64,000 nt of DNA. Origin: a virus (lineage: Duplodnaviria; Caudoviricetes). Position 1 is the first letter of the stretch; the number at the start of each line of letters is the position of its first letter. Below are positions 2,416 to 25,649 of this stretch, piece by piece. Below the pieces are notes generated by a model. The model worked only from the letters and a program-made list of their open reading frames with translations. It did not search any database and had not been told where the DNA came from. The position numbers were made by a program, and so were the translations under genes. The stretch lies in IMG/VR virus record IMGVR_UViG_2791355120_000002, positions 1 to 64,000 of that record; one strand, written 5' to 3'.

Positions 2416-2418
2416 AAG

Positions 2419-3906: not shown

Positions 3907-3913
3907 ACCGTGT

Positions 3914-4456: not shown

Positions 4457-4459
4457 CGG

Positions 4460-5119: not shown

Positions 5120-5164
5120 TTAACTACCCTTCGATGTTGTGGGTGAAAAGCGGATAGGCATGGT

Positions 5165-13589: not shown

Positions 13590-16097
13590 ATGGCAAGTGC
13601 TCCCACGCTCGACGGCGTGCTCGATTCCGTCCGCCCTCTGATCGAGGCCGGCGCGTCGCTGCATTGGTTGGTCCCCTTTGAGAAGCGGCCGATCGAAAAC
13701 GAATGGTCGAAGGCTCCGTTTCAGGACGAAGCCGCGCTCCGCAAGTCCTATCGTAGCAACGCCAACATCGGCATCCGGCTCGGCGAGCCGTCGAAGACCG
13801 ATATTGGCTACCTGCATCTGATCGACCTGGACATCCGCAAACCGGAACTCGCCGCCGAGGCGTGGGCAAAGCTGCTCGAACTCTGGCCGGCAGCGCGGTC
13901 GTTCCCCACTGGCATCAGCGGATCAGGCGGCGAAAGCCGCCATATCTATTTTCTGACCGACAAGCCGTTCCCAAAGAAGAAGCTCGCCAAGTCCACCAAC
14001 TTCACGATGGTGTGGGACGCGCAGAAGGAGCGCGAGGTTCGCAAATACGATTGGGAGATCGACCTTTACGGCACTGGCGCGCAAGCGGTGCTGCCACCTT
14101 CGATCCATCCGAATACCCGCCTGCCCTATCGTTGGGAACGGCCGCTCGAACTCGATTTCCCGATGATGATGGAGATCGGCTCGTCACAGGTCGAAGCATG
14201 GGGCGTCAGCGCCGCGTCGGCGCAGCCGGAAGACGATGAGGACGACCTTTTCGCGCTCTTGCGCGCAACGCCGATGGACCTGGCGCCCGAGAAGATCGAC
14301 GAGATCATGCGCGATCTGCCGGCCGATTGGGTCGACGATCGTGACCAGTGGTTGACAGTCGGCGCCGCGCTGCATCACCAGTTCGAGGGAGCCAACGCGG
14401 GCTTCGAGCGGTGGAACGAATGGGCGAAGCAGTCGCCGAAGTTCGACGCCAAGGACTCGGCGCGCGTTTGGAAGTCCTTCAAGGGCTCAAAGAATCCCGT
14501 CCGCATGGCGACGCTGATCCAGGCGGTGCAGACGAAGAAGCTCGCTCTCGACCTCGGTCTCGACGACGATGACGACGGTTTCGATTTGCCAGCCATCATT
14601 CCCGCCGCGTCGAGCAACGACCTTTCCGACTTGCTCGGCACCGACACCAATGACCTTTCCGACCTGCTCGGCGGCTCCCCCCAACCTGCCGCGAAAGCGG
14701 ACAAAAAGGATGCCGTTGACCCTGACTGGTTGAGCAAGCTGCACCGCAACGAGGAAGGCGAGATCAAGAGCACCCTTCCGAACGTCGCCCTGATCGTTGA
14801 TTGCGATCCGCGCACGCGCGGCATTGTCGCCTTCAGCGAGTTCAAGCAGACGGTTGTGCTGCGTGGCACCGGTCGCAAGGCATCACGGAAGCGCGACTCA
14901 GGACACGATCCGGTCAATCTCGACGGCCGTCTGTGGGAAGTGCAGGATGAACTCAACGGAGACAGTTGGAGCGACAGCCACGACTTCGCGGTGCGCGCCC
15001 TTATCGAGAGCAAGACGCAGTTGAAGGGCTACGGGATCAAGGTCACTGACCGCGATCTCAAGGGCGGCATCGATATGGCCGCGCAGCGGCGCCGCTTCCA
15101 TCCGGTCAAAGAACTGATCGAATCGGTAACATGGGACGGCACCCCGCGCGCCGAGACCCTGTTCATCGACTATCTCGGCTGCGACGACAACCCCTATTAC
15201 CGCCAGGCGTCGTTGATGACCCTAGTTGGCGCTATCGCCCGCGTATATCGCCCCGGCCACAAGTTCGATTTCGTGCCGATCCTCGAAGGCGTGCAGGGCA
15301 AAGGCAAATCCACTTTCATCGAAATTCTCGGCCTGCACTGGTACAACGAACTCACTGGTGAGATCAGCGATCCGAAGCAGATGATCGAGGCCATGCAGGG
15401 CTCGTGGATACTGGAAATCGGCGAACTTTCAGCAATGCAGCGCTCGGAAGTCAACGACCTCAAGGCGTTCGTCAGCCGCACCCATGACAAGGCCCGCCTT
15501 GCCTTTGCCAAGCGCGTTCAGGAATACCCGCGCCAGTGCATCTTTATCGGCTCGACCAATGACCGCGAGTACCTGCGCGACGCGACTGGTGGTCGACGCT
15601 TCTGGCCGATCGTCTGCAACCTGGAAGGCCAAATCGATAATCCCCGGCTGCGCCGGGAAATTTTGCAGGTGTGGGCCGAGGCGCTGCAAATCTTCCGCGA
15701 CATGGAGAAGCGCTACCAGGGCGCACCGTTGCCGCTATTCCTGACCGACGAGGCGGCCAAGACGGCACTCGTCATGCAAGAAAGCCGCCGCGTCGAGAGC
15801 GCGGAAGACATCCTTGCTGGCCAGATTGCGGCTTGGCTCGAACAGCCGATCGGCACCGATGAGCGATTCGACGATCTGGACGTGGACGCCCCGAAGGTCT
15901 ATCGCCAGGAGACCTGCATTCGGGAGATTTGGGAGGCCATGCTAGGCCGCGACGGCGCGATTCCGCAGACCGAGAACGTGAAGATCGGCCGCGCCATGCT
16001 TCAAGTCGGCTGGCCGCGCTCTGCCGGCGTCCTGCACGGGCGGGAAATCAACAAAAAATGGGGCAATTGTCGCGTCTACACGAGACCTGAGAAATAG
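13590..16097 (+). CDS. Primase-polymerase / PriCT-2 / VapE-type helicase
   Basis: NIGIRLG, DLD, H.YF and LPPSIHP (prim-pol); DRDQWL.VG.ALH (PriCT-2); LEGVQGKGKST, EIGEL, GSTN and TGGRRFWP (VapE). Confidence 0.92.
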   Translation: MASAPTLDGVLDSVRPLIEAGASLHWLVPFEKRPIENEWSKAPFQDEAALRKSYRSNANIGIRLGEPSKTDIGYLHLIDLDIRKPELAAEAWAKLLELWPAARSFPTGISGSGGESRHIYFLTDKPFPKKKLAKSTNFTMVWDAQKEREVRKYDWEIDLYGTGAQAVLPPSIHPNTRLPYRWERPLELDFPMMMEIGSSQVEAWGVSAASAQPEDDEDDLFALLRATPMDLAPEKIDEIMRDLPADWVDDRDQWLTVGAALHHQFEGANAGFERWNEWAKQSPKFDAKDSARVWKSFKGSKNPVRMATLIQAVQTKKLALDLGLDDDDDGFDLPAIIPAASSNDLSDLLGTDTNDLSDLLGGSPQPAAKADKKDAVDPDWLSKLHRNEEGEIKSTLPNVALIVDCDPRTRGIVAFSEFKQTVVLRGTGRKASRKRDSGHDPVNLDGRLWEVQDELNGDSWSDSHDFAVRALIESKTQLKGYGIKVTDRDLKGGIDMAAQRRRFHPVKELIESVTWDGTPRAETLFIDYLGCDDNPYYRQASLMTLVGAIARVYRPGHKFDFVPILEGVQGKGKSTFIEILGLHWYNELTGEISDPKQMIEAMQGSWILEIGELSAMQRSEVNDLKAFVSRTHDKARLAFAKRVQEYPRQCIFIGSTNDREYLRDATGGRRFWPIVCNLEGQIDNPRLRREILQVWAEALQIFRDMEKRYQGAPLPLFLTDEAAKTALVMQESRRVESAEDILAGQIAAWLEQPIGTDERFDDLDVDAPKVYRQETCIREIWEAMLGRDGAIPQTENVKIGRAMLQVGWPRSAGVLHGREINKKWGNCRVYTRPEK

Positions 16098-16129
16098 CCT
16101 CATTTAGATCATCATCCCTGTTCGATTTG

Positions 16130-16150
16130 ACCCGCTTCGGCGGGTTTTTT
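16130..16150 (+). terminator. Rho-independent terminator
   Basis: ACCCGC-TTCG-GCGGGT followed by a T tract, after the primase gene. Confidence 0.85.
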
Positions 16151-16237: not shown

Positions 16238-16461
16238 TTATACACTCTATACAGGACATACACACTTTACACGGGGTTCCATACTCGTATCGTCGACCAC
16301 GACTCCCACGTGTTCGGGCTTCAGCCCACTCCTTGCATCCCTATCTTATTTCAGTCTCTCTACAAACCAAGTGTATAGAGTGTATAGAGTGTATTCGGTC
16401 AACAAAATCAACGCCTTACAGCTATGCAGTCTCCTATACAGTCTCAAAGTCAAGTGTATAG
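16238..16461. repeat. Iteron-like repeats; putative replication origin
   Basis: AGTGTATAG about x3 in tandem at 16370-16396; inverted TATACACTCTATACA at 16239-16253; further copies near 16434 and 16454; AT-rich. Confidence 0.6.
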
Positions 16462-16564
16462 CCGTTTCACCGCCGAAAAATTCATCACCAACCGGTTATC
16501 AGATAGGAATATTTGCCTCGCCACTCGTTTCGCTGCCGGGATTTTCAAATTTTGCGTGAATCGC

Positions 16565-16608
16565 GCTCAGCGCCTCTCGCCCATCCGGCGACCCCGCGGG
16601 AAGGACCC
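16565..16608 (-). other. Putative cos packaging site (cosQ plus cosN)
   Basis: Minus strand reads GGGTCCT (lambda cosQ sequence), 25 nt, then GAGGCGCTGAGC (9/12 identical to the Chi cohesive end as recalled). Confidence 0.6.
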
Positions 16609-16857
16609 TGAGCGCCCAAGCCTTTGACTTCATTCGCTTTTTCGATGTCGAGCGGCAAATGCGATACGTTCAACTTGCATCGTCGACCATGATGCAACGC
16701 ATTGAAACGACTAGGGAACTGCGGCCTAAGCGATCATGCGATACGCGCAACCGGGCAGGCCTGCCGCACGCAACGTGCAATTGTGCCTATCCAATCGCCT
16801 TTGATGCATGACGCGGGCAGCACGGGCGCCGGGCAGCTTGCCACGGGCAGGCCGGCT

Positions 16858-16920
16858 GCAGGGCTTCGCCGAGCGGCGGCTGCAGCACGGCAGCACGGCA
16901 GGGCTTCGCCGAGCGGCGGC
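16858..16920. repeat. 23-bp perfect direct repeat x2
   Basis: GCAGGGCTTCGCCGAGCGGCGGC at 16858-16880 and 16898-16920; GCAGCACGG also repeated nearby. Confidence 0.85.
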
Positions 16921-16976
16921 AGCACGGGAAGGAATCCCGCGCACGCGAGGCAGCTTGACGGCGCGACCTGGCACGC

Positions 16977-17010
16977 TTGACAATGGGTCAGAGTTTCACC
17001 TAAAACGTGA
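16977..17010 (+). promoter_or_regulatory. Sigma70-like early promoter overlapped by an operator
   Basis: TTGACA at 16977; TCAC-CTAAAAC-GTGA at 16996-17010 covers the -10 region. Confidence 0.7.
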
Positions 17011-17036
17011 AAGACTAACGCGGGAGACCTGAGACC

Positions 17037-17255
17037 ATGAGCATTCATACCTGGAAGGCGCGCGATAAAGCGGCACGCATGGGTGGCTACGCTGGTAGAG
17101 ATAGCGCGGCGCCGCTGTGGGAGATGTCCAAGCGCGAATTGATCGAGATCGCAACGCGACTCGGCGAGATTTGCAGCGACGAAGGCGGCGCCGATAACGG
17201 CATTGCCCGCGCTATCGAGGAACACGGCATATTGAAGCAAAACGCGATCATTTAG
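17037..17255 (+). CDS. Hypothetical early protein
   Basis: First ORF after the promoter. Confidence 0.65.
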   Translation: MSIHTWKARDKAARMGGYAGRDSAAPLWEMSKRELIEIATRLGEICSDEGGADNGIARAIEEHGILKQNAII

Positions 17256-17257
17256 CC

Positions 17258-17494
17258 ATGACGATGCAATTTGAGTTTCACGCATACCACGACGGCTTGC
17301 GGGCTGATATCACAACTGAGCGGCTGCAAAGTGATAGCGCGGCAAGGGCAAAGGCCGGCCGCATGGCGAAGCGGTGCAATGGTCCGGTTGACCTTGCCCG
17401 AGCCGGCGCCGCGCCATGGGATGAGCGCTATATCACCACGGCCAGCCCGAGCCAGTTTCACGCAAGCGGCTATCGATTGGAGCGGCTGGCGTAA
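17258..17494 (+). CDS. Hypothetical early protein
   Basis: Adjacent same-strand ORF. Confidence 0.6.
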   Translation: MTMQFEFHAYHDGLRADITTERLQSDSAARAKAGRMAKRCNGPVDLARAGAAPWDERYITTASPSQFHASGYRLERLA

Positions 17495-17500
17495 AGCCGC

Positions 17501-17533
17501 TTGACTCGGCTGCTAGTTTCACGTTTAATGTGA
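17501..17533 (+). promoter_or_regulatory. Promoter plus operator
   Basis: TTGACT-17-TTTAAT; TCAC-GTTTAAT-GTGA at 17519-17533; nearly identical to 19607-19650. Confidence 0.75.
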
Positions 17534-17559
17534 AAGTCACGAAACAACGGGATTACGCA

Positions 17560-17775
17560 ATGTCCGCTTTGATCGCTTTCGCCGCTGCCAATCCTGAGAC
17601 CGCTTTTCAGCTTGTCATGCTTGCGCTTTGCGGCGTTGTCGCCCTGGCAATGGCCGTTGCTGGCTTGCTCTATCTCACGGAAGCCGAGCGGCGCCGCAAC
17701 CGTTCCAACCGTCGCCGCGACAAGCGCCGCGCTGCCCGCATGGCAGCTTTCCGGCGCCGCGTGCGCTCGGCTTAA
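17560..17775 (+). CDS. Small membrane protein with Arg-rich tail
   Basis: One hydrophobic helix followed by an Arg-rich C-terminus. Confidence 0.6.
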   Translation: MSALIAFAAANPETAFQLVMLALCGVVALAMAVAGLLYLTEAERRRNRSNRRRDKRRAARMAAFRRRVRSA

Positions 17776-17802
17776 CTTTCACTTCTAACGGGAGAATCAC
17801 CA

Positions 17803-18054
17803 ATGCTTGCCAAATTGCTTGCAGCCACGGTTGCCACGGGAGTCGGCAGCTTCGCCATTGCCTGCAGCCTGCCCGCTCAGCCCGAGCCGGCGCCGCGCTT
17901 CGAAATACGCGTCACGACCTATGACGGGCAGTTGTTCATCGCGGGCAGCGGCGACGATTGCCTGAGCGCATGGGAAGGCGCCCGCGTGCCGCATGGCTGG
18001 CAATCGATCGAATGTGTCGACGCCACGGCGCCGCGCTTCGCCTTTCACTTTTAA
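17803..18054 (+). CDS. Small exported protein
   Basis: GGGAG SD; hydrophobic N-terminus. Confidence 0.6.
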   Translation: MLAKLLAATVATGVGSFAIACSLPAQPEPAPRFEIRVTTYDGQLFIAGSGDDCLSAWEGARVPHGWQSIECVDATAPRFAFHF

Positions 18055-18069
18055 CGGGAGAATCACGCT

Positions 18070-18288
18070 ATGGATATCGAGTCCATGTTCTACCATGTCG
18101 AGTCGGCTCGGGCTGCCATGCGGGCAGGCCTGCCGATAACTGCGGCCGTTCACATGCGGCACGCGTTGCAGTGCGCCAATGCGCTCAAAAGCCCGCGCTT
18201 GCGGTCTCGAGTTTTCCGAATCCGAAACAAGCTTCGGCCGCTGGCCGAGCATCACACAAGAATTATCGCCGCTCAGATTGCGGCCTAA
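18070..18288 (+). CDS. Hypothetical early protein
   Basis: GGGAG SD within an operator-like site. Confidence 0.6.
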   Translation: MDIESMFYHVESARAAMRAGLPITAAVHMRHALQCANALKSPRLRSRVFRIRNKLRPLAEHHTRIIAAQIAA

Positions 18289-18302
18289 CGGGAGTCCCTG
18301 CC

Positions 18303-18623
18303 ATGTCAAAATACTTCCACATCATGACCGGCTTGCGCGGTTGCTACATGCCCGACAATGCCTATGTCATCCGCGTCGACACTAGGCGCGAACTAAAAGC
18401 CGCAATCGAAGATGAGGCACGGCTTTGCCGCGACTCTGGCTTTGTCGGCTGCAGCAAATCGGCCGTAGCCAGCCTGGCCGCTGCCGCGTGGCGCGAAGCA
18501 CACAAGCGCAATCCTTCGATCTATCCCCACGTTGCGCCATACGGCAGCCGCGACAATCGTCATTCGGCGATTCATGTGTCTACCGCGACGCGTGCCGAAT
18601 ATCTGGAATTCGAGTCGGCCTAA
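18303..18623 (+). CDS. Hypothetical early protein
   Basis: GGGAG SD; MSKYFHIMTGLRGCYMPD. Confidence 0.65.
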   Translation: MSKYFHIMTGLRGCYMPDNAYVIRVDTRRELKAAIEDEARLCRDSGFVGCSKSAVASLAAAAWREAHKRNPSIYPHVAPYGSRDNRHSAIHVSTATRAEYLEFESA

Positions 18624-18710
18624 GCCGTGGCGCCCGATCACATAGCAGAAATCGCACTAATCGAGATGTCACGGCTGCAGCGTGCGGCCATAGCTATTCA
18701 GGAGTCGACC

Positions 18711-19610
18711 ATGAATGAAGCTCTTTTGAACGCGTTCCGGTTTCATTTCCGCAACGCCACGGCAGGCTACATCAACGCGAATTGCGCTAAAGCCGGTCCT
18801 GCCAAATGGGCGATTGCAGCCGCTCGGCAAGATGTCGCGGCAGGTAAAGCACGATATCCGCGCGGCCAATATGCGGCCGTCACCTGGCAGCCGCGCGACG
18901 ACAGTTCTAGGCGCGCCGAGCGGCTTGCGTTTGTGGAAGATGTCGCGGGCGCCGGCTTGCGGTTTGTCGGCAAGGTGGAAGCTGACACGCCACGCGGCCA
19001 GATTTGGAGCGACCGCGACTCGTGCGGCTGGTATAGCGATCTCGATCAATCGGAAACGATTTATGGAGTCGTGTATCAACTGCCCGGCCGCGACGGCAAA
19101 GCGCGCTTTGTGGCAGGCTATGCCAGCGACGACGATTGCGACGGGCTGCCGACTCTCGATCTCGGCCATATCTTCGAAAGCGATTCCTGCCGTGGGGACT
19201 ATTACGGCAACGTGCAAGAGCATGACGACGCGCGCGACGCTGCCCGAGCGGCCGATAGCATGGCGCAACGTGCGGCCGAGCAAGAGCGGGAATACAAGGC
19301 CGCATGGCAGGCCGGCCAGCGCTATAGCGAACTCGCAGACGAAATTGCGGCAGATAGGAAGGTAGCGCTTGAACTGCTTTCCGAGCGACGGGCAGCACGC
19401 GGCAACGGCGTCACTTTCCCTGCCATTTGCGCGACCATACGGCAACGCGTCGCCGAGATAATGCACGGGATTGCAGACGCTCGGGCAAAACGTGAAAAGC
19501 TGGCCGAAGGTGATTTTATCTCGGATTGGTTGCCGAGTTGGAATTCCAGTGACAAGCGGCTGCAGGCCGCGTTTAACGACGGCGCCGGGCAGACTATTTT
19601 TACCTGTTGA
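18711..19610 (+). CDS. Hypothetical early protein
   Basis: AGGAG SD; 299-aa ORF. Confidence 0.7.
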   Translation: MNEALLNAFRFHFRNATAGYINANCAKAGPAKWAIAAARQDVAAGKARYPRGQYAAVTWQPRDDSSRRAERLAFVEDVAGAGLRFVGKVEADTPRGQIWSDRDSCGWYSDLDQSETIYGVVYQLPGRDGKARFVAGYASDDDCDGLPTLDLGHIFESDSCRGDYYGNVQEHDDARDAARAADSMAQRAAEQEREYKAAWQAGQRYSELADEIAADRKVALELLSERRAARGNGVTFPAICATIRQRVAEIMHGIADARAKREKLAEGDFISDWLPSWNSSDKRLQAAFNDGAGQTIFTC

Positions 19611-19639
19611 CTCGCCTCGCACTTTCACGTTTAATGTGA
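19607..19639 (+). promoter_or_regulatory. Promoter plus operator
   Basis: TTGACT-17-TTTAAT; TCAC-GTTTAAT-GTGA at 19625-19639. Confidence 0.75.
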
Positions 19640-19685
19640 AAGTCACGAAACGACGTGACGGCATAGCAGCAAAGGAGTCATCCCT

Positions 19686-19802
19686 ATGAAATACGAATCC
19701 CCTTACCGTCGCGGCGATTTTGCCAACACGCGGGAAGGCCGCGTGAGGCGCGAAAACCGGCTGGCGCGTATCGCTGCCAAGCGCTCTTTTTTCCAGGGCT
19801 GA
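19686..19802 (+). CDS. Small basic protein (38 aa; not in the ORF track)
   Basis: AAGGAG SD; MKYESPYRRGDFANTREG... Confidence 0.5.
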   Translation: MKYESPYRRGDFANTREGRVRRENRLARIAAKRSFFQG

Positions 19803-19805
19803 CCT

Positions 19806-20051
19806 ATGACCGCGCAATTTGATACACTAGGTTACGCTCAGGCGCTGAAAAGCGCTGGCGTGCCTGCCAAGCAGGCCGAAGCACATGCAAAGGTCGCGCG
19901 GGAATACCTAATGCCGGAACTCGCAACAAAGGCCGATATTGCCGAACTGCGGCATTTGATTGAGCGGCAAACGTTGCAGCTTACCGTGCGACTCGGCGGA
20001 ATCATCGTCGTGGGCATTGGTGTTCTAGCAGCGCTCAAATTGCTGCCGTGA
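19806..20051 (+). CDS. DUF1640/CCDC90-like membrane-anchored protein
   Basis: FDTL.YA..L..AG....QAEA, LATKADI and a C-terminal TM helix. Confidence 0.8.
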   Translation: MTAQFDTLGYAQALKSAGVPAKQAEAHAKVAREYLMPELATKADIAELRHLIERQTLQLTVRLGGIIVVGIGVLAALKLLP

Positions 20052-20154
20052 TCTAGCGCGGCTTAACGGCCGCGCCTTTCCATCTCTCAAAATCAACCGG
20101 GCTTTGCGCCGCGCTTTTCAGCGCCACGGCCGAGCCATGTCTAAGGAATCTCAC

Positions 20155-21510
20155 ATGACCACGATTAGCGCCACTTACAGCCCGGAAGACAACAAAATCC
20201 GGCTCTATGCATCGTCAAGGCTCGACTCCGAAACCTATGAGCGAGTCAAGGCTGCCGGCTTCGCGTGGGCGCCGCGTCAGGAACTTTTCGTAGCGCCCAA
20301 ATGGTCGCCGAAACGGGAAGACCTGGCGCTTGAACTTGCGGGCGAAATCGAGCCGGAAGAAATGACCCTGGCCGAGCGGGCGCAAGCCAAAGCTGAGCGA
20401 CTCGACGAACTGGCGCACAAGCGTCACCGGCAGGCTAATGCCTATAATCGCGCGGCTCAAGAATTGTCCGAAGCCTTTTCGAACGGCCAGCCTATTCTAG
20501 TCGGACATCATTCCGAAGCCAAAGCCCGTAAGACGCAAGCCCGGATGCATTCGGCCATGACCAATGCAAACAAGGCTGCAAAACTGGCCAATTACTGGCT
20601 TTACCGTGCCGAAGGAGTCGAGCGGCACGCGAATTATAAGAACGATCCCCGAGTCCGTGCCGGCCGGATTAAGACGTTGCTTGCCGAGTTGCGCGACATG
20701 CAACGCGACATCAACCACGGCCATTTGTGCTTGCAGGTATGGGAAAAGATTACTCAGGATGAGGCAATCAAGGTTGCGCTCGGCCGCGCCATTAGCACGG
20801 GTTCGCTTGCGCCGTGGGATTTGTGGGGCAAGGTTGATAAAGGAGAAGTGTCGCCGCAAGAGGCGCGGCAGCAATGTATTGACGCAGCAAATCGGACCAT
20901 CAAGAGCGATTATCGGCGCCGCTATATCGAGCACACGCTAAACCGGCTCAGCTATGAACGCGAATTGCTCGGCCCGGTTACTAGGTTCGAAGGCGAGTTG
21001 ACTCCCGTCATCTTGCAGGCCTTTGCCCGTGAGCATGGCGCCCACAAGCCAGAAGGCCGGAAAATCGACGCTGAGACCTTCGTTATTGAAAGCTCGGCCG
21101 TGCTGCCGTTGCACTTGGCAAACGATACCGTTTTGGAGCTTTCCGGCGACGAATGGCGCGACCTGATGCAATCGGCTGGATATGAAGTGCCAGCGAAGAA
21201 AGACGGCTTGCCGCCAATCCTGAATCTCAAGTGCAAAAGCCTGCAGGCCAAGCACCGCTATCACCGGGATCAGGTCGAGACTTTCCCCGTGGTCGAGATG
21301 ACCAAAGCCGAATATGGGAAAATCTATTCTGAGCAACGCGGGACTCGCCTTTCCCTTTGCGGTGAATTCCGTTTCAAGATTTGCCCGAACCCGCGTCACG
21401 ACGGGCCGCGCTACATGGCCGGATGGTGTGCGGTATTCTTGACGGACTCGAAAGCTCATCCGCTGCCCGACTCGGTCGCGGCACTGGAAAGCGCGGAGTC
21501 GGTAGCGTGA
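20155..21510 (+). CDS. DUF3560 domain protein
   Basis: ATYSPEDNK.RLY, GF.WAP and GQPILVGHHSE motifs. Confidence 0.85.
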   Translation: MTTISATYSPEDNKIRLYASSRLDSETYERVKAAGFAWAPRQELFVAPKWSPKREDLALELAGEIEPEEMTLAERAQAKAERLDELAHKRHRQANAYNRAAQELSEAFSNGQPILVGHHSEAKARKTQARMHSAMTNANKAAKLANYWLYRAEGVERHANYKNDPRVRAGRIKTLLAELRDMQRDINHGHLCLQVWEKITQDEAIKVALGRAISTGSLAPWDLWGKVDKGEVSPQEARQQCIDAANRTIKSDYRRRYIEHTLNRLSYERELLGPVTRFEGELTPVILQAFAREHGAHKPEGRKIDAETFVIESSAVLPLHLANDTVLELSGDEWRDLMQSAGYEVPAKKDGLPPILNLKCKSLQAKHRYHRDQVETFPVVEMTKAEYGKIYSEQRGTRLSLCGEFRFKICPNPRHDGPRYMAGWCAVFLTDSKAHPLPDSVAALESAESVA

Positions 21511-22109
21511 ACCGGCCGGCGATATATTCCAGGCCGGCGAAGCCTATGCGCATTGAAGTCAAGCGCCGCGACGACTTCGCCAAACTGGCAGCGCCGCAGA
21601 TTGTCGAGCCCGTGACGGTTGACAAGTTCACGGAATGCCATGTGACGCCTAGCGACGTTGCCGCGCGCATGGTCGACTATCTCGGGCCGCAAGGGGACTA
21701 TTTGACCTTAGAGCCGAGCGCGGGAACCGGGCAGCTTTCTAGGGCGCTGCTAGCTGCCGGGCATAGCAAGTTTGAGCTTGTGCAGGTCGAGCGGCACAAT
21801 TCCCTAGCGTCGCGGCTGCACTCATTCGGTAGCGTTGTGAACCGCTGCTTTCTGGAATGGTCAGGGGAAGTTGCGGGCAAGGTCGAGTTTCCGCGCATAA
21901 TCATGAATCCGCCTTTTAGCGACGTGCGAAAGCACGTTGCAGCGGCCGTTAGCTTGCTCGGGCGCCATGGTCACACGGAAGCGCCGACTCTTGTCGCGCT
22001 AGTTCCTATCACCTTTGAACGCGGCGACGCTGAGACGTTGGAAACGCTTCCGGCTGACACGTTCGTCACGGCCAAAGTTCACACGAAGATTATCCGAATC
22101 CGTCGCTAA
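21507..22109 (+). CDS. SAM-dependent (adenine-type) methyltransferase-like protein
   Basis: LEPSAGTG and IMNPPF motifs; GTGA-coupled to the DUF3560 gene. Confidence 0.8.
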   Translation: MNRPAIYSRPAKPMRIEVKRRDDFAKLAAPQIVEPVTVDKFTECHVTPSDVAARMVDYLGPQGDYLTLEPSAGTGQLSRALLAAGHSKFELVQVERHNSLASRLHSFGSVVNRCFLEWSGEVAGKVEFPRIIMNPPFSDVRKHVAAAVSLLGRHGHTEAPTLVALVPITFERGDAETLETLPADTFVTAKVHTKIIRIRR

Positions 22110-22142
22110 CCCACGATTTCACTTTTAACGGGAGTTTCACCA

Positions 22143-22640
22143 ATGCCCGAGTTTATTCTAGAGTCTTCCGGCCGCGTCGACATGCCGGCCGCGTCGCTCA
22201 GCTTCAGCGACCTGGACGAATTCACACAAGGCTATATCGAGGCGCTCTTTTTCACTTCCGAGTGCCCGCAAGTCGCAACGGAAGAATTCAAAACGGCCGA
22301 GCATCAAGAGGCAATGCGGGAAGGCGCGGCGGATGGAGTCCTGCCGTGCGATGTCGGCTTTGCTGATCTGGCGCCCGAGACCCTGCAAGCGATCATTGCC
22401 GATTGCCGCGCCTTTCAGGAAAAGAACGCGGCCGATTTGGAAGCGGCTTATTCCCACATCCTGCAACCCGACTATGACGCGGCAGCGGCCGGCCGTGACT
22501 TTTGGTACACGCGCAACGGCCATGGAGTCGGCTTTTGGGATCGAGGACTCGGCCAAGTCGGCGACAAGCTCAGCGCCGCGTGCCGCTACCGCGAACTCAA
22601 TCCCTATTTCGGCGACGACGAAAAGGTTTATCTGTCATGA
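22143..22640 (+). CDS. Acidic hypothetical protein
   Basis: GGGAG SD; GRDFWYTRNGHGVGFWDR motif. Confidence 0.75.
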   Translation: MPEFILESSGRVDMPAASLSFSDLDEFTQGYIEALFFTSECPQVATEEFKTAEHQEAMREGAADGVLPCDVGFADLAPETLQAIIADCRAFQEKNAADLEAAYSHILQPDYDAAAAGRDFWYTRNGHGVGFWDRGLGQVGDKLSAACRYRELNPYFGDDEKVYLS

Positions 22641-23182
22641 CCTGGCACACGTTCAACCGCGCTGAGCTTGACGCGTTCAAAGCGACCTGGCATTGCCACG
22701 GGCTGCCCGACTCGCTCAATTCCCTATCCTTCGAATTCGCCAGCAATGGCGATTTGGTCGACATCGAAGCTAAAGCCCGCAACGGCCGGCCGCTCGACTC
22801 GGCAGACTTTGACGGACCGGCCATGGTCGCGCTTGCCGAAGATGCAAAGCGGCTGGCAGCCGAGCCGATAACTCCCGTTCTATTCCGCGTTCATCGTGCG
22901 CCTAAGACACACGGCGACGACGTGACGGCCGTTTTCCCTGCCGAGCCACACGACCTAACCGGCCGCTATATGACCTGTTACGCTCATATCGGGCAGCACG
23001 GCGCGTGCGGTTGGGAATGGTATCGCCGCACGCGGCCGGCGACTCCTGCCGAGTATGCCAGTTTGAAGGCTGAGCTTGAGTCGGCGCCCTATGGCTACCG
23101 CTTGAAAGTTTGCCAGCGGATTCAGCGCGACCATCGCAAAGCCTTTGACGCGGAATTGCAGCGGCTCAGGCGCACCGCATGA
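22637..23182 (+). CDS. Hypothetical protein
   Basis: ATGA-coupled; AVFP...CYAHIGQH...PATP.EY. Confidence 0.7.
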   Translation: MTWHTFNRAELDAFKATWHCHGLPDSLNSLSFEFASNGDLVDIEAKARNGRPLDSADFDGPAMVALAEDAKRLAAEPITPVLFRVHRAPKTHGDDVTAVFPAEPHDLTGRYMTCYAHIGQHGACGWEWYRRTRPATPAEYASLKAELESAPYGYRLKVCQRIQRDHRKAFDAELQRLRRTA

Positions 23183-24339
23183 GTCAGCTTCCACTCGGCA
23201 ACGGCGCCGCGATTCCGTGGCGCTATCTCACGCGGCATATCGGCATTTTCGGCGCCACGGGCTCGGGCAAAACAACGACTCTCGGCGCCATTGCCGAGCG
23301 GGCGCCATGTCCGACTCTTATCCTGGACGCTAAAGGCGATTTGGCTTCGCTCGGGCAGCGGCTTCTAAGGCCTACCATGCGAGTCGACGCAATGGGCGCC
23401 GACTTGATCGCACGGGCTTTAGACCTGAGCGAAGCGCAAGCCGGCGCCTTGCAAATCGCTATGGCGTGGGCGGAAGATTCCGGCCGCGCCATTGTCACGT
23501 TGGCAGACTTGCGCGACCTGCTAAACGCGGCGCTGCAGCATGATCTAAGCGCGCGATATGGTCTCATCTCCCCTGTTAGCGTCGCGGCCGTTCAACGGGC
23601 TTTGTTGCGCCTGGAACGCGGCGCGCCATGGGCTTTCGACCTGCCGAGCCATAACCCTATCGACACAACGGGAATCACGGTTTACGCGGCAGCCGAGTTA
23701 ACCGCGCTGCCCGGCCTATATGGCGCCTTTGCCGCGCATGTGTTGGAACGGCTTTATCAGGGGCTCGGCGAAATCGGCGACGTTGCCGCGCCTGGACTCC
23801 TTGTGCTGATAGATGAGGCTCATCTAATCTTTGACGGCGCCACGGCCGCAATCGTGCGGCGAATAGAGCAAATCACACGACTCATTCGATCGAAGGGAGT
23901 CGGGCTAATTTTCGTGACGCAATCCCCTAGCGATCTCCCGCATATTGTTTCCGGTCAGCTTGCGACGCGGATTCAGCACGCATTGCGCGCTTCCACTCCA
24001 ATGCATCACAAGGCCTTGAAAGCGGCAGCCGAGACCATGCCGGGCAATATCAGCGCGGCAAGCATTCTCGGGCTAGCAACCGGGCAGGCAATCGTTAGCA
24101 CGCCAGATTGCACGGGCAAGCCGCTACCTGGCCGCGTCGTCGCAATCCAGCGCGGCCGGCTGCCGTTGCACGCGGTTGAATTGCCAGCGCCCACGGCGCG
24201 ACGGCAGCGCCCGAGAATGCCCGAGCCGAGCCGAGCGGCGCCGGCAGCGCCACGGCCGCGCCCGTGGTATTTCTGGCCGCTATTGTGTCTCGCGGCGCTA
24301 TGGGGCGCCGTGCTGCTAGGCTATGTGTCGCCGCACTAG
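23179..24339 (+). CDS. HerA/FtsK-like ATPase (DUF853-like) with a C-terminal TM helix
   Basis: RHIGIFGATGSGKT, DAKGDL, IDEAHLIF and RLIRSKGVG..FVTQSP.D motifs. Confidence 0.85.
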   Translation: MSQLPLGNGAAIPWRYLTRHIGIFGATGSGKTTTLGAIAERAPCPTLILDAKGDLASLGQRLLRPTMRVDAMGADLIARALDLSEAQAGALQIAMAWAEDSGRAIVTLADLRDLLNAALQHDLSARYGLISPVSVAAVQRALLRLERGAPWAFDLPSHNPIDTTGITVYAAAELTALPGLYGAFAAHVLERLYQGLGEIGDVAAPGLLVLIDEAHLIFDGATAAIVRRIEQITRLIRSKGVGLIFVTQSPSDLPHIVSGQLATRIQHALRASTPMHHKALKAAAETMPGNISAASILGLATGQAIVSTPDCTGKPLPGRVVAIQRGRLPLHAVELPAPTARRQRPRMPEPSRAAPAAPRPRPWYFWPLLCLAALWGAVLLGYVSPH

Positions 24340-24342
24340 ATC

Positions 24343-24371
24343 AAAGCCCGGTTAAGCCGGGCTTTTCTTTT
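24343..24371. terminator. Bidirectional terminator
   Basis: AAAGCCCGG-TTAAG-CCGGGCTTT plus a T tract, between convergent genes. Confidence 0.8.
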
Positions 24372-24394
24372 GCCGCTCGGCAGGTCTCGGGCAG

Positions 24395-24721
24395 CTATCC
24401 CCTAATGCATTCATGCTTGATCGAGTCGGCGAAATTGCGGGCAGCCAATGCCCTATCGCCGCTGGCCGCTATCGGCTCGGCATAGGCACGGGAAACGATG
24501 CTCTCCGCGTCGCCGCTTGCCTGGCGCATGGCAACGGACTCGGCCGTTCCTAGCTGCCGCAATGCCATTGCCGCGCTAGCGATCTCGGCAAGCCGGTTAC
24601 ACCTGGCGAAATCGATATCATGCGGCGCGGCCGATTGCATGGCAGGTCGCGGATTCACCATGGCATTGGCAACCGCGACGGCTGCCGCGCCAATCAACGC
24701 AATTCCGATCAATCGCCGCAT
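24395..24721 (-). CDS. Small exported protein
   Basis: Signal-peptide-like N-terminus, GGGGAG SD, Cys pair. Confidence 0.6.
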   Translation of the reverse strand: MRRLIGIALIGAAAVAVANAMVNPRPAMQSAAPHDIDFARCNRLAEIASAAMALRQLGTAESVAMRQASGDAESIVSRAYAEPIAASGDRALAARNFADSIKHECIRG

Positions 24722-24745
24722 GTGATCTCCCCTGCCCGGTTGAAA

Positions 24746-24789
24746 TGACGGGCAAGGGCAGGCGGCAACCTGTTATCCCTTGCCCGTCA
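24746..24789. repeat. 13-bp perfect inverted repeat (hairpin)
   Basis: TGACGGGCAAGGG ... CCCTTGCCCGTCA, with an inner CAGG/CCTG stem. Confidence 0.8.
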
Positions 24790-24987
24790 CAAGGTCGCGC
24801 GTTGCAGCGCGCAACTCCCAATCATCAAAGCCATAGCACAAGCTTTGACGGGCTTTCCGTAGCACGACCGCGCGGACAGCGCGAGTCCGTAATGTTATTA
24901 CATGACTATAGGAAAATCGTCCTATTGACGGGATCGGTCGCGCGATTCCGGGCTCGATCGACCGGGCGGCCGGCGCCAGGACCACCC

Positions 24988-25101
24988 GGAGAAATAGGTC
25001 TCAGAGAAATAGACCGACTCGGCCCCAGAGAAAATTACACGTTATCCGTTCGTAAAATCACGTCAAACGTGATACAGAGAAAATCAGCCACGGAGAAATA
25101 G
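24988..25101 (+). repeat. Cluster of RGAGAAAW direct repeats plus an operator
   Basis: Copies at 24988, 25003, 25027, 25076 and 25092; TCAC-GTCAAAC-GTGA at 25058-25072. Confidence 0.7.
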
Positions 25102-25103
25102 AT

Positions 25104-25649
25104 TTGAAAGCGACCGTCACTCCAGCCGAACTGCAACGAAATTTCATCTACGATCCTCATACCGGCTTCATCTACAAACGCTTGGGCGACGGCATCTGGT
25201 CAGCGCGCGGTAAACGCTGCTTCGAAACAGACAACAAGGGCATCTATAAGCAAGGCACCTTTCGCAGGCAGAGTTTCTTTGCACACCGGGTCGTGTGGGC
25301 CATCCACTATGGTGAGTGGCCGGCTGATGGCTATGAAATCGATCACATTAACGGCGACGGGAAAGACAATCGGATCGAAAACCTGCGACTCGTTTCCCAT
25401 CTCGAAAACTGCCGCAACCTCGGTCGTCGATTGCCGAAAAACCCCGAGCGTGACAGTGGCGTAAATGGTGTCTACTGGCACAAGCAGTCGAGGAAATGGA
25501 TGGCCAGGATCAAGATCAACGGAAAGTGGATTTATCTCGGCACATACAGCCATCTCGACGAGGCGGTGAGGATACGCAAGGATGCCGAGAAAGCCTACGG
25601 ATTCCACGCCAACCATGGGGCTCGACCGGCTAAGCAAAAAGCCGCGTAG
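25104..25649 (+). CDS. HNH homing endonuclease with an AP2-like domain
   Basis: AHRVVW, IDHINGD..DNRIENLR and SGV.GVYW...KW.ARI motifs. Confidence 0.9.
   Translation: MKATVTPAELQRNFIYDPHTGFIYKRLGDGIWSARGKRCFETDNKGIYKQGTFRRQSFFAHRVVWAIHYGEWPADGYEIDHINGDGKDNRIENLRLVSHLENCRNLGRRLPKNPERDSGVNGVYWHKQSRKWMARIKINGKWIYLGTYSHLDEAVRIRKDAEKAYGFHANHGARPAKQKAA

What the first reader, a model, noticed from the sequence alone, without database searches (positions are those of the whole stretch)
16610..24975. Sharply bounded 8.4 kb block at the predicted genome end avoids many short motifs
Seen (approximate hand counts, both strands): CCTC/GAGG about 11, ACCC/GGGT about 10, CACC/GGTG about 18 and GATC about 28 in this block. 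By comparison, 6-8 kb alone has about 14 CCTC/GAGG and about 26 GATC. Normally rare CTAG is frequent. The bias spans about 14 unrelated genes and the intergenic DNA, starts at the cos candidate and stops abruptly near 24975. Established: in lambda the last-packaged end enters the cell first, and T5 and T7 have early-entering segments. Inference: this is a first-injected leader purged of restriction or BREX-type target sites, so its small unknown genes are strong anti-defence or host-takeover candidates. Shared operators show the block is wired into the phage regulon rather than being a recent foreign insert.
Basis: partly seen in the sequence, partly recalled or inferred. Interest (0 to 1): 0.82.

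Follow-up and report, generated by a model that had tools for sequence, protein, structure and literature searches.

The report
Recoded DNA block beside phage cos
An 8.5-kb set of early genes next to the packaging cut site of a rhizobial prophage is written in a different short-word "dialect" of DNA from the rest of the phage, its relatives keep the same dialect at the same place, and this resembles the first-entering segment of phage T5.

Summary
The hand counts are exact. The block (about 16.35-24.95 kb) has the same G+C as the rest but a different dinucleotide, tetranucleotide, codon and amino-acid make-up. CCTC/GAGG, CACC/GGTG, ACCC/GGGT and ACAG/CTGT stay 2-5-fold depleted after synonymous-codon shuffling. 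GATC and CTAG are explained by codon usage. GANTC is enriched.

The shift is reverse-complement symmetric, so it acts on double-stranded DNA. The same signature lies across cos from the primase gene in 6 of 6 clade relatives examined. A plasmid gene pair with 75% and 64% protein identity lacks it. This rules out a recent foreign insert and plain codon bias.

The restriction-purge reading is only partly supported. Classic palindrome avoidance is genome-wide and lineage-specific, whereas the block's words are shared across host genera. Entry order is untested. T5's first-step-transfer DNA is a compositional island of similar size and strength.

The scan's earlier notes report early cassettes purged of one dinucleotide in other phages.

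The parts
16129..16146 (+). Intrinsic terminator after the primase/polymerase gene (13590-16097)
   Evidence: 7-bp stem, T run; gene identified by tblastn to RcPeripeteia and RHph_X2_30 primase/polymerase
16239..16461 (.). Cluster of GTGTATAG/CTATACAC repeats in an AT-richer gap left of cos. They may be terminase (cosB-like) sites or replication iterons; this is undecided
   Evidence: Relative L007 has a different repeat (TGAGA) at the same place (by eye)
16586..16620 (.). cos candidate: CGGCGACCCCGC...GGAAGGACCC
   Evidence: Aligned by eye to the first bases of the RHph_X2_30 record and to L007; by synteny to the mapped RcD ends. No virion-end data for this phage
16610..24975 (.).
16996..17010 (.). 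Operator-like palindrome TCAC-N7-GTGA, the first of three exact copies in the block (the others start at 17519 and 19625)
   Evidence: 14 exact matches in the 77-kb record, none beyond 68.5 kb
17037..18288 (+). Five small genes with no family match: 17037-17255, 17258-17494, 17530-17775 (one TM helix plus an Arg-rich tail), 17803-18054 (signal or lipoprotein-like N-terminus), 18070-18288
   Evidence: some are shared with L006, L007 and L008
18627..19610 (+). 327-aa protein, phrog_8188, function unknown
   Evidence: E 3.7e-45; 95% identical in L006
19806..20051 (+). 81-aa protein with a hydrophobic C-terminus (by eye), phrog_17872
20104..21510 (+). DUF3560 protein, a gene typical of conjugative plasmids
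   Evidence: PF12083, 1.2e-24; at least 5000 plasmid records, 3845 of them conjugative; best hit 75% identity on Aminobacter pUSP4
21381..22109 (+). Partner gene of DUF3560, with a methyltransferase-like N-terminal region. It is the same gene pair as on pUSP4, where an ArdC-like zincin gene follows. The true start is probably later than 21381
   Evidence: 64% identity; MTase_II, 2.2e-6
22143..22640 (+). Acidic 165-aa protein (pI 4.3), phrog_1915, widespread in alphaproteobacterial phages; confident model, no solved fold match
22637..23182 (+). 181-aa conserved protein; its gene is the only stretch of the block with a nucleotide match to RHph_X2_30; no family or fold match
23179..24339 (+). HerA/FtsK-superfamily P-loop ATPase (HerA_C / DUF853, YjgR-like), the conserved anchor gene of the block
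   Evidence: PF05872, 1.4e-69; 51-53% identity to the RcD AAA-ATPase
24343..24365 (.). Strong hairpin terminator (10-bp stem) serving the convergent genes on both sides
24395..24721 (-). Minus-strand 108-aa gene with a signal-peptide-like N-terminus; moron-like, and still in block composition
   Evidence: Read from the sequence and the ORF table; a matching stretch exists in L007 and L006; no family hit
24989..25101 (+). Inner boundary gap: three GAGAAATAG repeats (24989, 25004, 25093), two variants, and the operator at 25058. It lies upstream of the next transcription unit
   Evidence: the same repeats sit at the block edge in L006 (7150, 7165, 7184) and L007 (11709, 11724)
25104..25649 (+). 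HNH_3 + AP2 homing-type endonuclease, the first gene outside the block

Best explanation
The stretch is the cos-proximal early accessory module (the 'leader') of a temperate Casjensviridae-type prophage, probably of Mesorhizobium. It lies between the cohesive-end site and a repeat-rich promoter gap. It holds about 12 plus-strand genes under the phage-wide operator and one convergent minus-strand gene.

Shown:
- Its double-stranded sequence is held in a word composition unlike both the rest of the phage and the flanking host-like DNA.
- A set of asymmetric short words, above all CCTC/GAGG and CACC/GGTG, is removed on both strands. The removal works through context-dependent codon choice and through amino-acid shifts.
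- CcrM sites (GANTC) are enriched about 4-fold.
- The same signature sits at the same map position in all six clade relatives examined.
- Genes shared with plasmids carry the signature only in the phage.

Inferred: the force is selection on DNA that must work as naked, not yet protected DNA immediately after entry. On this view the block is the last-packaged, first-injected end, and it works like the first-step-transfer DNA of T5. T5's first-step DNA is a compositional island of similar size and strength, with partly overlapping word biases.

It is probably not a strain-specific type II restriction enzyme. It is more likely something common to all these phage-host pairs: either a conserved class of host nuclease or defence system that reads short asymmetric words, or an enzyme made by the phage itself from this block.
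For: (1) The island is real and sharp: chi-square 340-481 against about 150, with edges at 16.35 and 24.93 kb from an independently trained model. Karlin delta* for block against rest is 136, compared with 30-36 between other parts of the phage.

(2) It is not codon or amino-acid usage. Synonymous shuffles give CCTC/GAGG 8 vs 42.4, CACC/GGTG 17 vs 37.9, ACCC 8 vs 28.0 and ACAG 7 vs 28.4, each 0 of 500 as low. Glu before a G is GAA 29: GAG 6, but GAA 48: GAG 62 otherwise (Fisher p 6.9e-5).

(3) It acts on double-stranded DNA. Sense-strand log-ratios of a word and of its reverse complement correlate at r = 0.65; the 8 controls range from -0.17 to 0.32.

(4) It is conserved. Block/rest log-ratio vectors correlate at r = 0.79 (RHph_X2_30) and 0.61 (RcPeripeteia); the 7 controls range from -0.31 to 0.25. 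Blocks were found in 6 of 6 clade relatives: X2_30, RcPeripeteia (weaker), vB_RpoS-V18, L006, L007 and L008. CCTC/GAGG observed/expected is 0.25-0.61 in the blocks and 0.75-1.2 outside them.

(5) It depends on context. The DUF3560 gene pair has 75% and 64% protein identity to a plasmid pair, yet over 2112 aligned nt the phage has 2 CCTC/GAGG against 23 in the plasmid, 7 CACC/GGTG against 22, and 18 GANTC against 3. HerA-like orthologues score +48 to +168 bits/kb in 5 of 6 clade phages (RcPeripeteia -43) and -44 to -153 in three loci outside the clade (Gemmobacter L011, Klebsiella phage L010, Paracoccaceae L030).

(6) It lies at a physical end. RcD relatives have mapped 12-nt overhang ends at this position (PMC8601537). 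The X2_30 record start aligns to window position about 16586.

(7) Comparator. T5's first-step DNA (annotated in the record) has chi-square 299-689 against 109-219 and delta* 185 against 34. Six of its 10 most depleted words are among the 25 most depleted of 136 here.

(8) Precedent. In Autographiviridae only the first-injected region needs to lack a Type I motif (PMC12455610, abstract).
Against: - Entry order and packaging direction are not known for any member of this clade.
- The operon points away from cos here and in X2_30 and L007, but towards cos in RcD and V18. A T7-like transcription-coupled entry is therefore not general.
- The depletion is flat across the block, with a step at the edge and no gradient.
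- The same words are affected in phages of different host genera. Restriction-type palindrome avoidance is genome-wide: CCGCGG, GACGTC, CCCGGG, CAGCTG, GAGCTC, GGATCC, GGGCCC and GCATGC are each 0 against 8-38 expected outside the block. It is also lineage-specific: GTAC in RcD, and CCGCGG avoided here and in L006/L007 but not in X2_30.
- The block has no overall palindrome deficit (165 vs 147 expected).
- The enrichments (GANTC, GCAA/TTGC, CGGC) are not explained by avoidance.
- Codon usage is less host-like (GC3 0.65 vs 0.78). This is the opposite of plasmid leading regions (10.1101/2025.04.03.647016, abstract).
- No known anti-defence family was recognised.
- The T5 comparison rests on top-word lists only, and T5's first-step DNA also holds repeats.
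Confidence: 0.42

Rival explanations
1. The signature is a cis-acting or epigenetic code of the module, independent of entry order. The early operon is kept dense in CcrM (GANTC) methylation sites, in short A/T runs and in G/C runs. This would make the module a preferred substrate for factors found in all alphaproteobacteria or encoded by the phage, such as GcrA with RNA polymerase on methylated DNA, the phage's GapR-like nucleoid protein, or MucR-type silencers. The depleted words would then be the price of that design.
For: - GANTC is enriched above random expectation, not merely un-avoided. GASTC per kb in block against rest: 5.26 vs 0.92 (own), 3.54 vs 1.05 (X2_30), 3.26 vs 1.09 (RcPeripeteia), 8.12 vs 1.60 (V18).
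- The sites are balanced between the strands, as a palindromic methylase site would be (counted by eye: 21 and 23).
- The promoters at 17500 and 19606 carry GACTC in the -35 element TTGACTC (by eye).
- A/T runs of 4 or more are about twice as frequent in the blocks of all 5 phages.
- These phages encode a GapR-like protein (homologues in X2_30 and RcPeripeteia) and an N6_N4 methylase. X2_30 has a GcrA-like gene next to its block.
- The signature follows the module when its orientation flips.
Against: - This phage has no GcrA gene.
- Most GANTC sites lie inside genes, where promoter control does not need them.
- This reading does not explain the near-absence of CCTC/GAGG. Observed/expected given trinucleotides is 0.25, the strongest outlier.
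- T5, whose host lacks CcrM, shows a similar island.
- No binding or methylation data exist.
Confidence: 0.25
2. The signature is a regional evolutionary regime rather than a function. The cos-adjacent arm is a recombination-prone, high-turnover accessory region whose genes circulate in a gene pool of their own and are under weak translational selection. Its composition then reflects that pool, or a local strand-symmetric mutation bias.
For: - Gene content is mosaic. Some genes are 95-100% identical to L006, while others, including the DUF3560 pair, are absent from all the viral relatives compared.
- The RcD paper reports repeats and gene diversity at this end (PMC8601537, section 13).
- Conserved junction sequences (TAACGGGAG..TCAC) could serve as recombination linkers.
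- Codon bias is flatter and the proteins are rich in Ala and Arg.
Against: - The HerA-like anchor diverges in step with the core genes: 53% against 58-69% for primase, polymerase and terminase versus RcPeripeteia. It has therefore been co-inherited for a long time in the same hosts without drifting to their composition.
- CCTC/GAGG lies far below, and GANTC above, any neutral expectation.
- Context-dependent codon choice indicates selection on words.
- The nearest relatives of the imported gene pair have ordinary host-like composition.
Confidence: 0.15
3. A phage enzyme made early, from this block or acting on it, reads the banned words. It could be a nuclease that attacks host or competitor DNA, as Davison proposed for T5 protein A1. 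Or it could be a DNA-modifying enzyme whose mark must be kept off the early genes. The block is then the part of the phage genome that has to lack the enzyme's sites.
For: - This would explain why the same words are banned whatever the host, why the ban is strand-symmetric, and why it ends at a sharp module edge.
- The idea is in print for T5 first-step DNA (10.1101/866236, sections 13 and 31, passages read).
- Earlier notes of this scan propose self-modification escape for dinucleotide-free early cassettes in other phages (unchecked leads).
Against: - No nuclease or modification enzyme was identified in the block.
- No TGT/DpdA, QueC, Vut_1 or PurZ family is present in this genome (0 of 4 families).
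- A temperate phage is not expected to destroy host DNA.
- The rest of the phage genome carries the words at normal density and would need separate protection.
Confidence: 0.1
4. The signature is an ordinary foreign insert or a codon-usage artefact.
For: Composition is atypical, GC3 is lower, and a homing-type HNH gene lies at one edge.
Against: - The signature is present at the same position in 6 of 6 clade relatives.
- The block carries the phage's own operator.
- The bias survives synonymous shuffling.
- Relatives of the kind a donor would be lack the signature.
Confidence: 0.03

Closest known systems
First-step-transfer (pre-early) DNA of phage T5 and BF23
   Same: - It is a terminal segment of similar size (T5 about 9.6 kb, 7.9% of the genome; here about 8.5 kb, roughly 12% of a prophage of about 69 kb).
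- It is full of small genes of unknown function, some with transmembrane segments.
- An HNH endonuclease lies in or beside it.
- It ends in an untranslated, repeat-rich gap next to terminators (record annotation).
- It is a compositional island at unchanged G+C (delta* 185 vs 136) with overlapping depleted words (ACAG, CAGA, CTTC, GAAC, AGGA, GAGA) and enriched words (GCGC, CGCG, CGGC, CCGC).
- Restriction and CRISPR act on T5 only through first-step DNA (10.1101/866236, section 26).
   Different: - T5 is virulent and has long terminal repeats. This phage is temperate, with lambda-type head genes and (by homology) 12-nt cohesive ends.
- No protein named as A1, A2 or Dmp turned up in the family scans.
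- Two-step entry is not shown here.
- GANTC enrichment is specific to this clade; AGTC is depleted in T5 first-step DNA.
Early-injected region of Autographiviridae (T7; Murciavirus, PMC12455610)
   Same: Only the leading region has to lack a defence motif. The region is hypervariable and is reported to carry anti-defence genes (abstract).
   Different: - There, one defined Type I motif of one host is involved. Here many words are affected and they are shared across host genera.
- Here the operon orientation relative to the end is not conserved.
- No Ocr-like protein was recognised.
Leading regions of conjugative plasmids
   Same: They are the first DNA to enter and are enriched in anti-defence and establishment genes. 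The DUF3560 gene and its methyltransferase-like partner from this block sit next to an ArdC-like zincin gene and an N6 methylase on Aminobacter pUSP4. DUF3560 matches at least 5000 plasmid records, 3845 of them conjugative.
   Different: - Plasmid leading regions enter single-stranded. They show more, not less, host codon adaptation, and only some palindrome depletion (10.1101/2025.04.03.647016, abstract).
- The plasmid copy of the shared gene pair has ordinary composition.
Genome-wide restriction-site avoidance in phages and broad-host-range plasmids (for example RP4; recalled, not read here)
   Same: This phage shows it strongly: eight hexamer palindromes are absent from the 39 kb of non-block genes tested.
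   Different: That avoidance covers the whole genome and differs between lineages. The block signature is local, mostly non-palindromic, and shared between lineages.
Dinucleotide-purged early cassettes noted earlier in this scan (e1-5916866, e1-5687819, e1-5769485, e1-5960410 and others)
   Same: They are early gene units of phages, rewritten at the DNA level and at the cost of amino-acid composition; some lie beside packaging sites (AI notes that I did not check).
   Different: Those are 1-3 kb units with a near-total ban on one dinucleotide. This is an 8.5-kb unit with graded shifts of many words plus enrichments.

Membership tests
T5-type first-step-transfer leader | Lies at the genome end that enters the cell first | not testable with these tools
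   Adjacency to cos is inferred from homology and synteny. Entry order is unknown. No usable sequencing runs were found.
T5-type first-step-transfer leader | A discrete cis-acting stop signal (repeats or palindromes in an untranslated gap) at the inner edge | tested here: inconclusive
   There is a 380-bp gap with five GAGAAA(A)T-type repeats, hairpins and an operator. The gap is conserved in L006 and L007. Its function is untested, and it could simply be the next promoter region.
T5-type first-step-transfer leader | Pre-early proteins A1 and A2 required for the second step | tested here: inconclusive
   No block protein hit a family named as such in Pfam, PHROGs, NCBIfam or PADLOC. I made no direct comparison with the A1 or A2 sequences.
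T5-type first-step-transfer leader | The leader is compositionally distinct or poor in sites relative to the rest | tested here: met
   delta* is 136 here and 185 in T5, with internal controls of 30-36 and 34.
T5-type first-step-transfer leader | Long terminal direct repeat containing the leader | tested here: not met
   The block's composition occurs once in the 77-kb record. I made no repeat search for a second copy. Relatives have 12-nt cohesive ends.
Restriction-motif-free early-injected region (Autographiviridae type) | A host defence motif is absent from the leader but present elsewhere in the genome | tested here: inconclusive
   Several asymmetric words fit the pattern. The hosts' recognition motifs are unknown, no REBASE copy was available, and the words are shared across host genera.
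Restriction-motif-free early-injected region (Autographiviridae type) | Encodes a recognised anti-restriction protein (Ocr, ArdA or similar) | tested here: inconclusive
   No family hit. The acidic 165-aa protein (pI 4.3) and the DUF3560 pair are only candidates.
Horizontally acquired genomic island | Patchy presence among close relatives | tested here: not met
   A block at the same position in 6 of 6 clade relatives.
Horizontally acquired genomic island | Composition matches that of donor-type relatives | tested here: not met
   The plasmid orthologues (75% and 64% identity) have host-like words.
Plasmid-type leading region | Higher host codon adaptation of the first-entering genes | tested here: not met
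   GC3 is 0.65 vs 0.78, and A/T-ending codons are 2-3 times more frequent. I did not compute a codon adaptation index.

The most novel reading that the evidence does not exclude
This clade of lambda-like, cos-ended temperate siphoviruses delivers its DNA in two steps, as T5 does. The 8.5-kb recoded leader enters first and pauses at the repeat array at 24.99-25.10 kb. It is expressed from fully GANTC-methylated DNA. The HerA/FtsK-family ATPase that every member encodes in the leader then pulls in the rest of the chromosome. The banned words would mark the sites of whatever acts on DNA during the pause.
Probability: 0.1. Interest if true: 0.9.

Novelty: new variant of a known kind. Interest (0 to 1): 0.7.

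Why it matters
If the leader reading holds, genome composition alone could reveal which end of a cos phage enters first, and which genes act before any protection exists. That would apply to a family (Casjensviridae) and a host group (rhizobia, Rhodobacterales) where no entry biology is known.

The block is also a clean natural experiment in DNA-level selection. An imported plasmid gene pair has been rewritten while its protein was kept. The banned and favoured words therefore point to an unidentified reader of short DNA words that is shared across alphaproteobacterial phage-host pairs.

The dozen conserved proteins of unknown function, two of them with confident models and no solved fold match, become prioritised candidates for anti-defence or establishment functions.

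T5's first-step DNA shows the same kind of island. I found no report of this in the papers I read, which suggests the signature may be general.

Tried and rejected
- cos-mimic avoidance. I tested whether the banned words are those of the cos site, purged to prevent premature terminase cutting late in packaging. The 60-nt windows around cos are not unusually rich in block-avoided words in any of 4 phages; 0.32-0.84 of genome windows score as low or lower. Rejected.
- Internal Shine-Dalgarno or anti-SD avoidance at the mRNA level. Sense-strand CCTC is 1 against 25.6 expected and GAGG 10 against 33.4, and the whole shift is reverse-complement symmetric. None of the 10 remaining GAGG is a ribosome-binding site. 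Rejected as the main cause.
- Chi-like protective octamers. No strongly strand-biased enriched 6-8-mers were found, apart from junction or RBS repeats. Rejected.
- Repeated elements as the source of CTAG, GAGTC and similar words. The sites sit in varied contexts. Rejected.
- Local G/C-skew damping. It is present here, in X2_30 and in L007, but not in RcPeripeteia. It is descriptive only.
- Self-modification by 7-deazaguanine or diaminopurine. No TGT, QueC, Vut_1 or PurZ family in the record.
- A GcrA gene in this phage: none found.
- Rfam families in 15.9-25.8 kb: none at gathering score.
- Sigma-70 consensus scan: 3 sites against 3.9 expected, so uninformative.
- Fold searches of two block proteins: Foldseek best E 1.5 and 0.053; VIA-align best Z 4.2 and 4.8. 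No inference drawn.
- Protein atlas for the acidic protein: only unnamed viral clusters. PDB sequence search: only E 0.07.
- Scan of bacterial genomes with the HerA-like protein: the best hit was 46% identity (Gemmobacter). No close prophage relative was found among species representatives.
- Sequencing runs: only small-share contig holders and no RNA holder listed.
- DUF3560 literature: 5 papers hold the term and 4 were listed; none was read.
- Not in print, as far as these searches show: searches returned no paper describing a compositional block at the end of Casjensviridae or RcD genomes. The RcD paper mentions only repeats and gene diversity there. Supplementary files, for example S5 Fig of PMC8601537, were closed and may bear on this.
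- Limits. Gene starts in the block are approximate. RcPeripeteia's signal is weaker: the best segment is only 64.4-66.5 kb and its HerA gene scores -43. Whether the record starts of X2_30 and V18 are physical ends is not stated in anything I read.

Full report
WHAT THE WINDOW IS. The window is the first 64 kb of a 77,120-bp single-contig IMG/VR provirus record. By protein similarity and gene order it is a temperate siphovirus of the Casjensviridae kind. It is related to the Rhodobacter capsulatus RcD-cluster phages (terminase 65%, DNA polymerase 69% and primase/polymerase 58% identity to RcPeripeteia). It is more distantly related to Rhizobium phage RHph_X2_30 (49%, 46% and 41%). The closest named homologues of two block proteins come from Mesorhizobium sp. 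(94% and 89%), so the host is probably a Mesorhizobium.

The layout is as follows. Integrase lies at 1-1191. Leftward replication genes run to about 13.2 kb. The primase/polymerase gene is at 13590-16097 (+). Then come the block, further rightward genes to about 37 kb, and leftward tail, head and terminase genes to 68.2 kb. The phage-wide operator-like palindrome is absent beyond 68.5 kb. The last 8 kb is therefore probably host flank.

THE OBSERVATION. All the hand counts were reproduced: CCTC/GAGG 11, ACCC/GGGT 9, CACC/GGTG 19, GATC 28 and CTAG 21 in 8366 bp; 14 CCTC/GAGG and 26 GATC in 6-8 kb. One-kb counts over the whole record show that the depletion is flat from 17 to 25 kb and ends in a step. 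CCTC/GAGG is 1, 1, 2, 2, 0, 3, 1, 0 and then 10.

Tetranucleotide chi-square against the genome mean is 340-481 across the block, against mostly 90-266 elsewhere. A log-likelihood model trained only on RHph_X2_30 picks out 16340-24915 as the best segment of this genome.

G+C is unchanged, but the following differ:
- GC3 is 0.65 instead of 0.78.
- A/T-ending codons are 2-3 times more frequent.
- Ala is 15.7% against 11.5%, and Arg 9.2% against 6.0%.
- The dinucleotide signature differs: GC 1.48 against 1.18, GA/TC 0.95 against 1.20, AC/GT 0.70 against 0.85, TA 0.69 against 0.51. Karlin delta* is 136, against 30-36 between other parts of the phage.

IS IT MORE THAN CODON USAGE? With amino-acid sequence and each gene's codon usage held fixed (500 shuffles), CCTC/GAGG is 8 against 42.4, CACC/GGTG 17 against 37.9, ACCC/GGGT 8 against 28.0, ACAG/CTGT 7 against 28.4 and CATC/GATG 33 against 53.1. 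None of the 500 shuffles was as low for any of these.

GATC (20 against 25.9; 29 of 500 as low) and CTAG (17 against 12.9) follow from the codon usage. GANTC (50 against 24.3) and GCAA/TTGC (143 against 91.6) are enriched.

Codon choice depends on context. Glu before a G-initial codon is GAA 29: GAG 6, but GAA 48: GAG 62 otherwise (p 6.9e-5). In the rest of the phage the effect is weak. Given trinucleotide frequencies, CCTC/GAGG is the strongest outlier (11 against 44). Of the 11 remaining sites, 10 are GAGG (8 of them GAGGC), one is CCTC, and none is a ribosome-binding site.

AT WHICH LEVEL DOES IT ACT? Words and their reverse complements are affected alike on the coding strand: CCTC 1 and GAGG 10 against 25.6 and 33.4 expected; GGTG 7 and CACC 12 against 38.4 and 44.0. 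Over all non-palindromic tetranucleotides the two log-ratios correlate at r = 0.65. Eight control partitions of the other genes give -0.17 to 0.32. This points to a property of double-stranded DNA, not of the mRNA or the proteins.

IS IT PECULIAR TO THIS GENOME? No. RHph_X2_30 has the same island in record positions 1-6000 (chi-square 401-462 against 90-265). RcPeripeteia has a weaker one at its right end (58-66.3 kb; 254-777). Block/rest log-ratio vectors correlate at 0.79, 0.61 and 0.60 between the three phages, against -0.31 to 0.25 for seven control segments.

Three IMG/VR contigs whose HerA-like protein is 73-87% identical each have a sharply bounded block. In L007 it starts about 0.5 kb after the primase gene, as here. 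Two more distant contigs (46% and 40% identity) have none. Ruegeria phage vB_RpoS-V18 has the island in its first 4.5 kb or so: CCTC/GAGG is 4, 6, 2 per 1.5 kb against about 22, and GANTC is 19, 16, 14 against about 4. So 6 of 6 clade relatives examined carry it, always across the genome end from the primase gene.

For the RcD cluster that end is experimentally mapped as a 12-base 5' overhang (PMC8601537, Table 3 and sections 13 and 24). The first bases of the X2_30 record align by eye with window position about 16586, and L007 conserves the same sequence. The operon's direction is not conserved. It points away from cos here and in X2_30 and L007, and towards cos in RcD and V18.

IMPORTED OR IMPOSED? 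The DUF3560 gene and its neighbour (20104-22109) have orthologues of 75% and 64% protein identity on Aminobacter plasmid pUSP4, where they sit beside an ArdC-like zincin gene and an N6 methylase. The plasmid copy has ordinary host-like composition. Over 2112 aligned nucleotides, phage against plasmid counts are: CCTC/GAGG 2 against 23, CACC/GGTG 7 against 22, ACAG/CTGT 1 against 15, GATC 2 against 12, GANTC 18 against 3.

The HerA-like gene scores +48 to +168 bits/kb on the block model in five of the six clade phages (RcPeripeteia -43). It scores -44 to -153 in three other contexts.

The HerA-like protein diverges about as much as the core proteins. The module has therefore been inherited with the phage for a long time without drifting to host composition. 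It also carries the phage's own operator, with exact copies at 16996, 17519 and 19625. A recent foreign insert and a passively inherited donor signature are therefore both unlikely.

IS IT RESTRICTION AVOIDANCE? The phage shows classic restriction avoidance, but everywhere. Eight hexamer palindromes (CCGCGG, GACGTC, CCCGGG, CAGCTG, GAGCTC, GGATCC, GGGCCC, GCATGC) are absent from 39 kb of non-block genes, where 8-38 copies of each are expected. Six of them (all but GGATCC and GGGCCC, which were not among the rows printed) also have 0 copies in the block's genes.

That avoidance differs between lineages. X2_30 has CCGCGG at 54 against 41 expected. RcPeripeteia instead lacks GTAC (1 against 52).

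The block shows no general palindrome deficit (165 against 147), and some palindromes are enriched (GGCGCC 28 against 8.7). The block-specific words are mostly asymmetric and are shared across host genera. A reader common to all these phage-host pairs fits better. I tested and rejected three specific ideas: cos mimicry, Chi-like motifs and mRNA-level Shine-Dalgarno effects.

A COMPARATOR. T5's first-step-transfer DNA is annotated in its record as entering first. It turns out to be an island of the same kind. Chi-square is 299-689 in the first 10 kb against 109-219 beyond (one further window reaches 394). Delta* is 185 against 34, at similar G+C.

Six of its ten most depleted tetranucleotides (CTTC, ACAG, CAGA, GAAC, AGGA, GAGA) are among the 25 most depleted of 136 here. 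Four of its eight most enriched (GCGC, CGCG, CGGC, CCGC) are among the 25 most enriched here. It also has 0 GAATTC, and 1 CCWGG against 40 in the next 40 kb.

Davison's preprint records that EcoRI and CRISPR act on T5 only through first-step DNA. It proposes that this DNA lacks the sites of a phage nuclease (10.1101/866236, passages). In Murciavirus only the first-injected region must lack a Type I motif (PMC12455610, abstract).

ANATOMY OF THE EDGES AND GENES. Left of cos lies an AT-richer gap with GTGTATAG repeats. L007 has other repeats at the same place. If these are terminase-binding sites, packaging would start towards the primase gene and the block would be packaged last. This is a weak inference.

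The HerA-like gene ends at a strong two-way terminator (24343-24365). A convergent minus-strand gene for a small signal-peptide protein follows (24395-24721). Then comes a 380-bp gap with GAGAAATAG repeats and an operator, ahead of an HNH homing-type endonuclease. The repeats recur at the block edge in L006 and L007.

The block proteins are mostly without a family. Two conserved ones gave confident models (pLDDT 95 and 94) with no solved structural relative. The HerA-like ATPase belongs to the DNA-translocase superfamily: PF05872 at 1.4e-69, plus weak partial hits to CedD, VirB4 and TrwB.

VERDICT. The most likely reading (about 0.4) is a conserved, selection-maintained leader that works like first-entering DNA. 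Its word code has an unknown reader that is not strain-specific. A methylation or nucleoid-protein code of the module (about 0.25), a regional evolutionary regime (about 0.15) and a phage-own enzyme (about 0.1) remain open. Entry order is the decisive unknown.

Noticed in passing
whole record (tested on 34 genes outside the block, 39 kb): Eight 6-bp palindromes are completely absent where 8-38 copies are expected: CCGCGG, GACGTC, CCCGGG, CAGCTG, GAGCTC, GGATCC, GGGCCC, GCATGC. CCCAG/CTGGG is also about 12-fold depleted (9 vs 111.8). This is very strong genome-wide restriction-site avoidance.
   Followed up: partly
L004+L005 (RcPeripeteia, OP009284): GTAC is almost absent genome-wide (1 vs 52 expected given trinucleotides). 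RHph_X2_30 does not avoid CCGCGG (54 vs 41). Avoided palindromes therefore differ by lineage.
   Followed up: partly
L094:1-10219 (phage T5, NC_005859): T5's first-step-transfer DNA is itself a tetranucleotide and dinucleotide island (delta* 185 vs 34). It has 1 CCWGG against 40 in the next 40 kb, and no GAATTC. I did not see this stated in the passages I read.
   Followed up: partly
window 34465-34746 (+): Phage-encoded GapR-like nucleoid-associated protein (PF10073, 3.3e-34). It is conserved in RHph_X2_30 (17247-17474) and in RcPeripeteia (52437-52688, annotated there as DsbA-like).
   Followed up: no
window 33630-34169 (+): A protein with the N-terminal domain of dATP/dGTP diphosphohydrolases (PF18909, 8e-19). 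No PurZ-type adenylosuccinate synthetase is present in the record, so a diaminopurine genome is not indicated.
   Followed up: partly
window 24989-25101 and 16089: GAGAAATAG occurs exactly at 24989, 25004, 25093 and 16089, that is, at both ends of the block region. Arrays of it mark the block edge in L006, L007 and L008.
   Followed up: partly
window 17779-17805, 18045-18072, 22119-22145: A repeated gene-junction sequence, TCACTT-N-TAACGGGAG(A/T)(A/T)TCAC, supplies the ribosome-binding site (GGGAG) of three block genes. Block RBSs use GGAG or GGGAG and never GAGG.
   Followed up: partly
window 24395-24721 (-): A convergent small gene for a protein with a signal-peptide-like N-terminus. It has its own upstream gap and a shared terminator, so it looks like a lysogenic-conversion (moron) gene.
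   Followed up: no
window 48001-50340: A separate compositional anomaly: G+C 0.52, chi-square 609, overlapping a 694-aa minus-strand ORF with GC3 0.55 among the tail genes. It is not block-like.
   Followed up: no
G000 69.3-77.1 kb (beyond the window): No operator palindromes and no similarity to either relative. Composition is close to the phage's non-block DNA (delta* 63) and far from the block (149). It is probably host flank of the provirus.
   Followed up: partly
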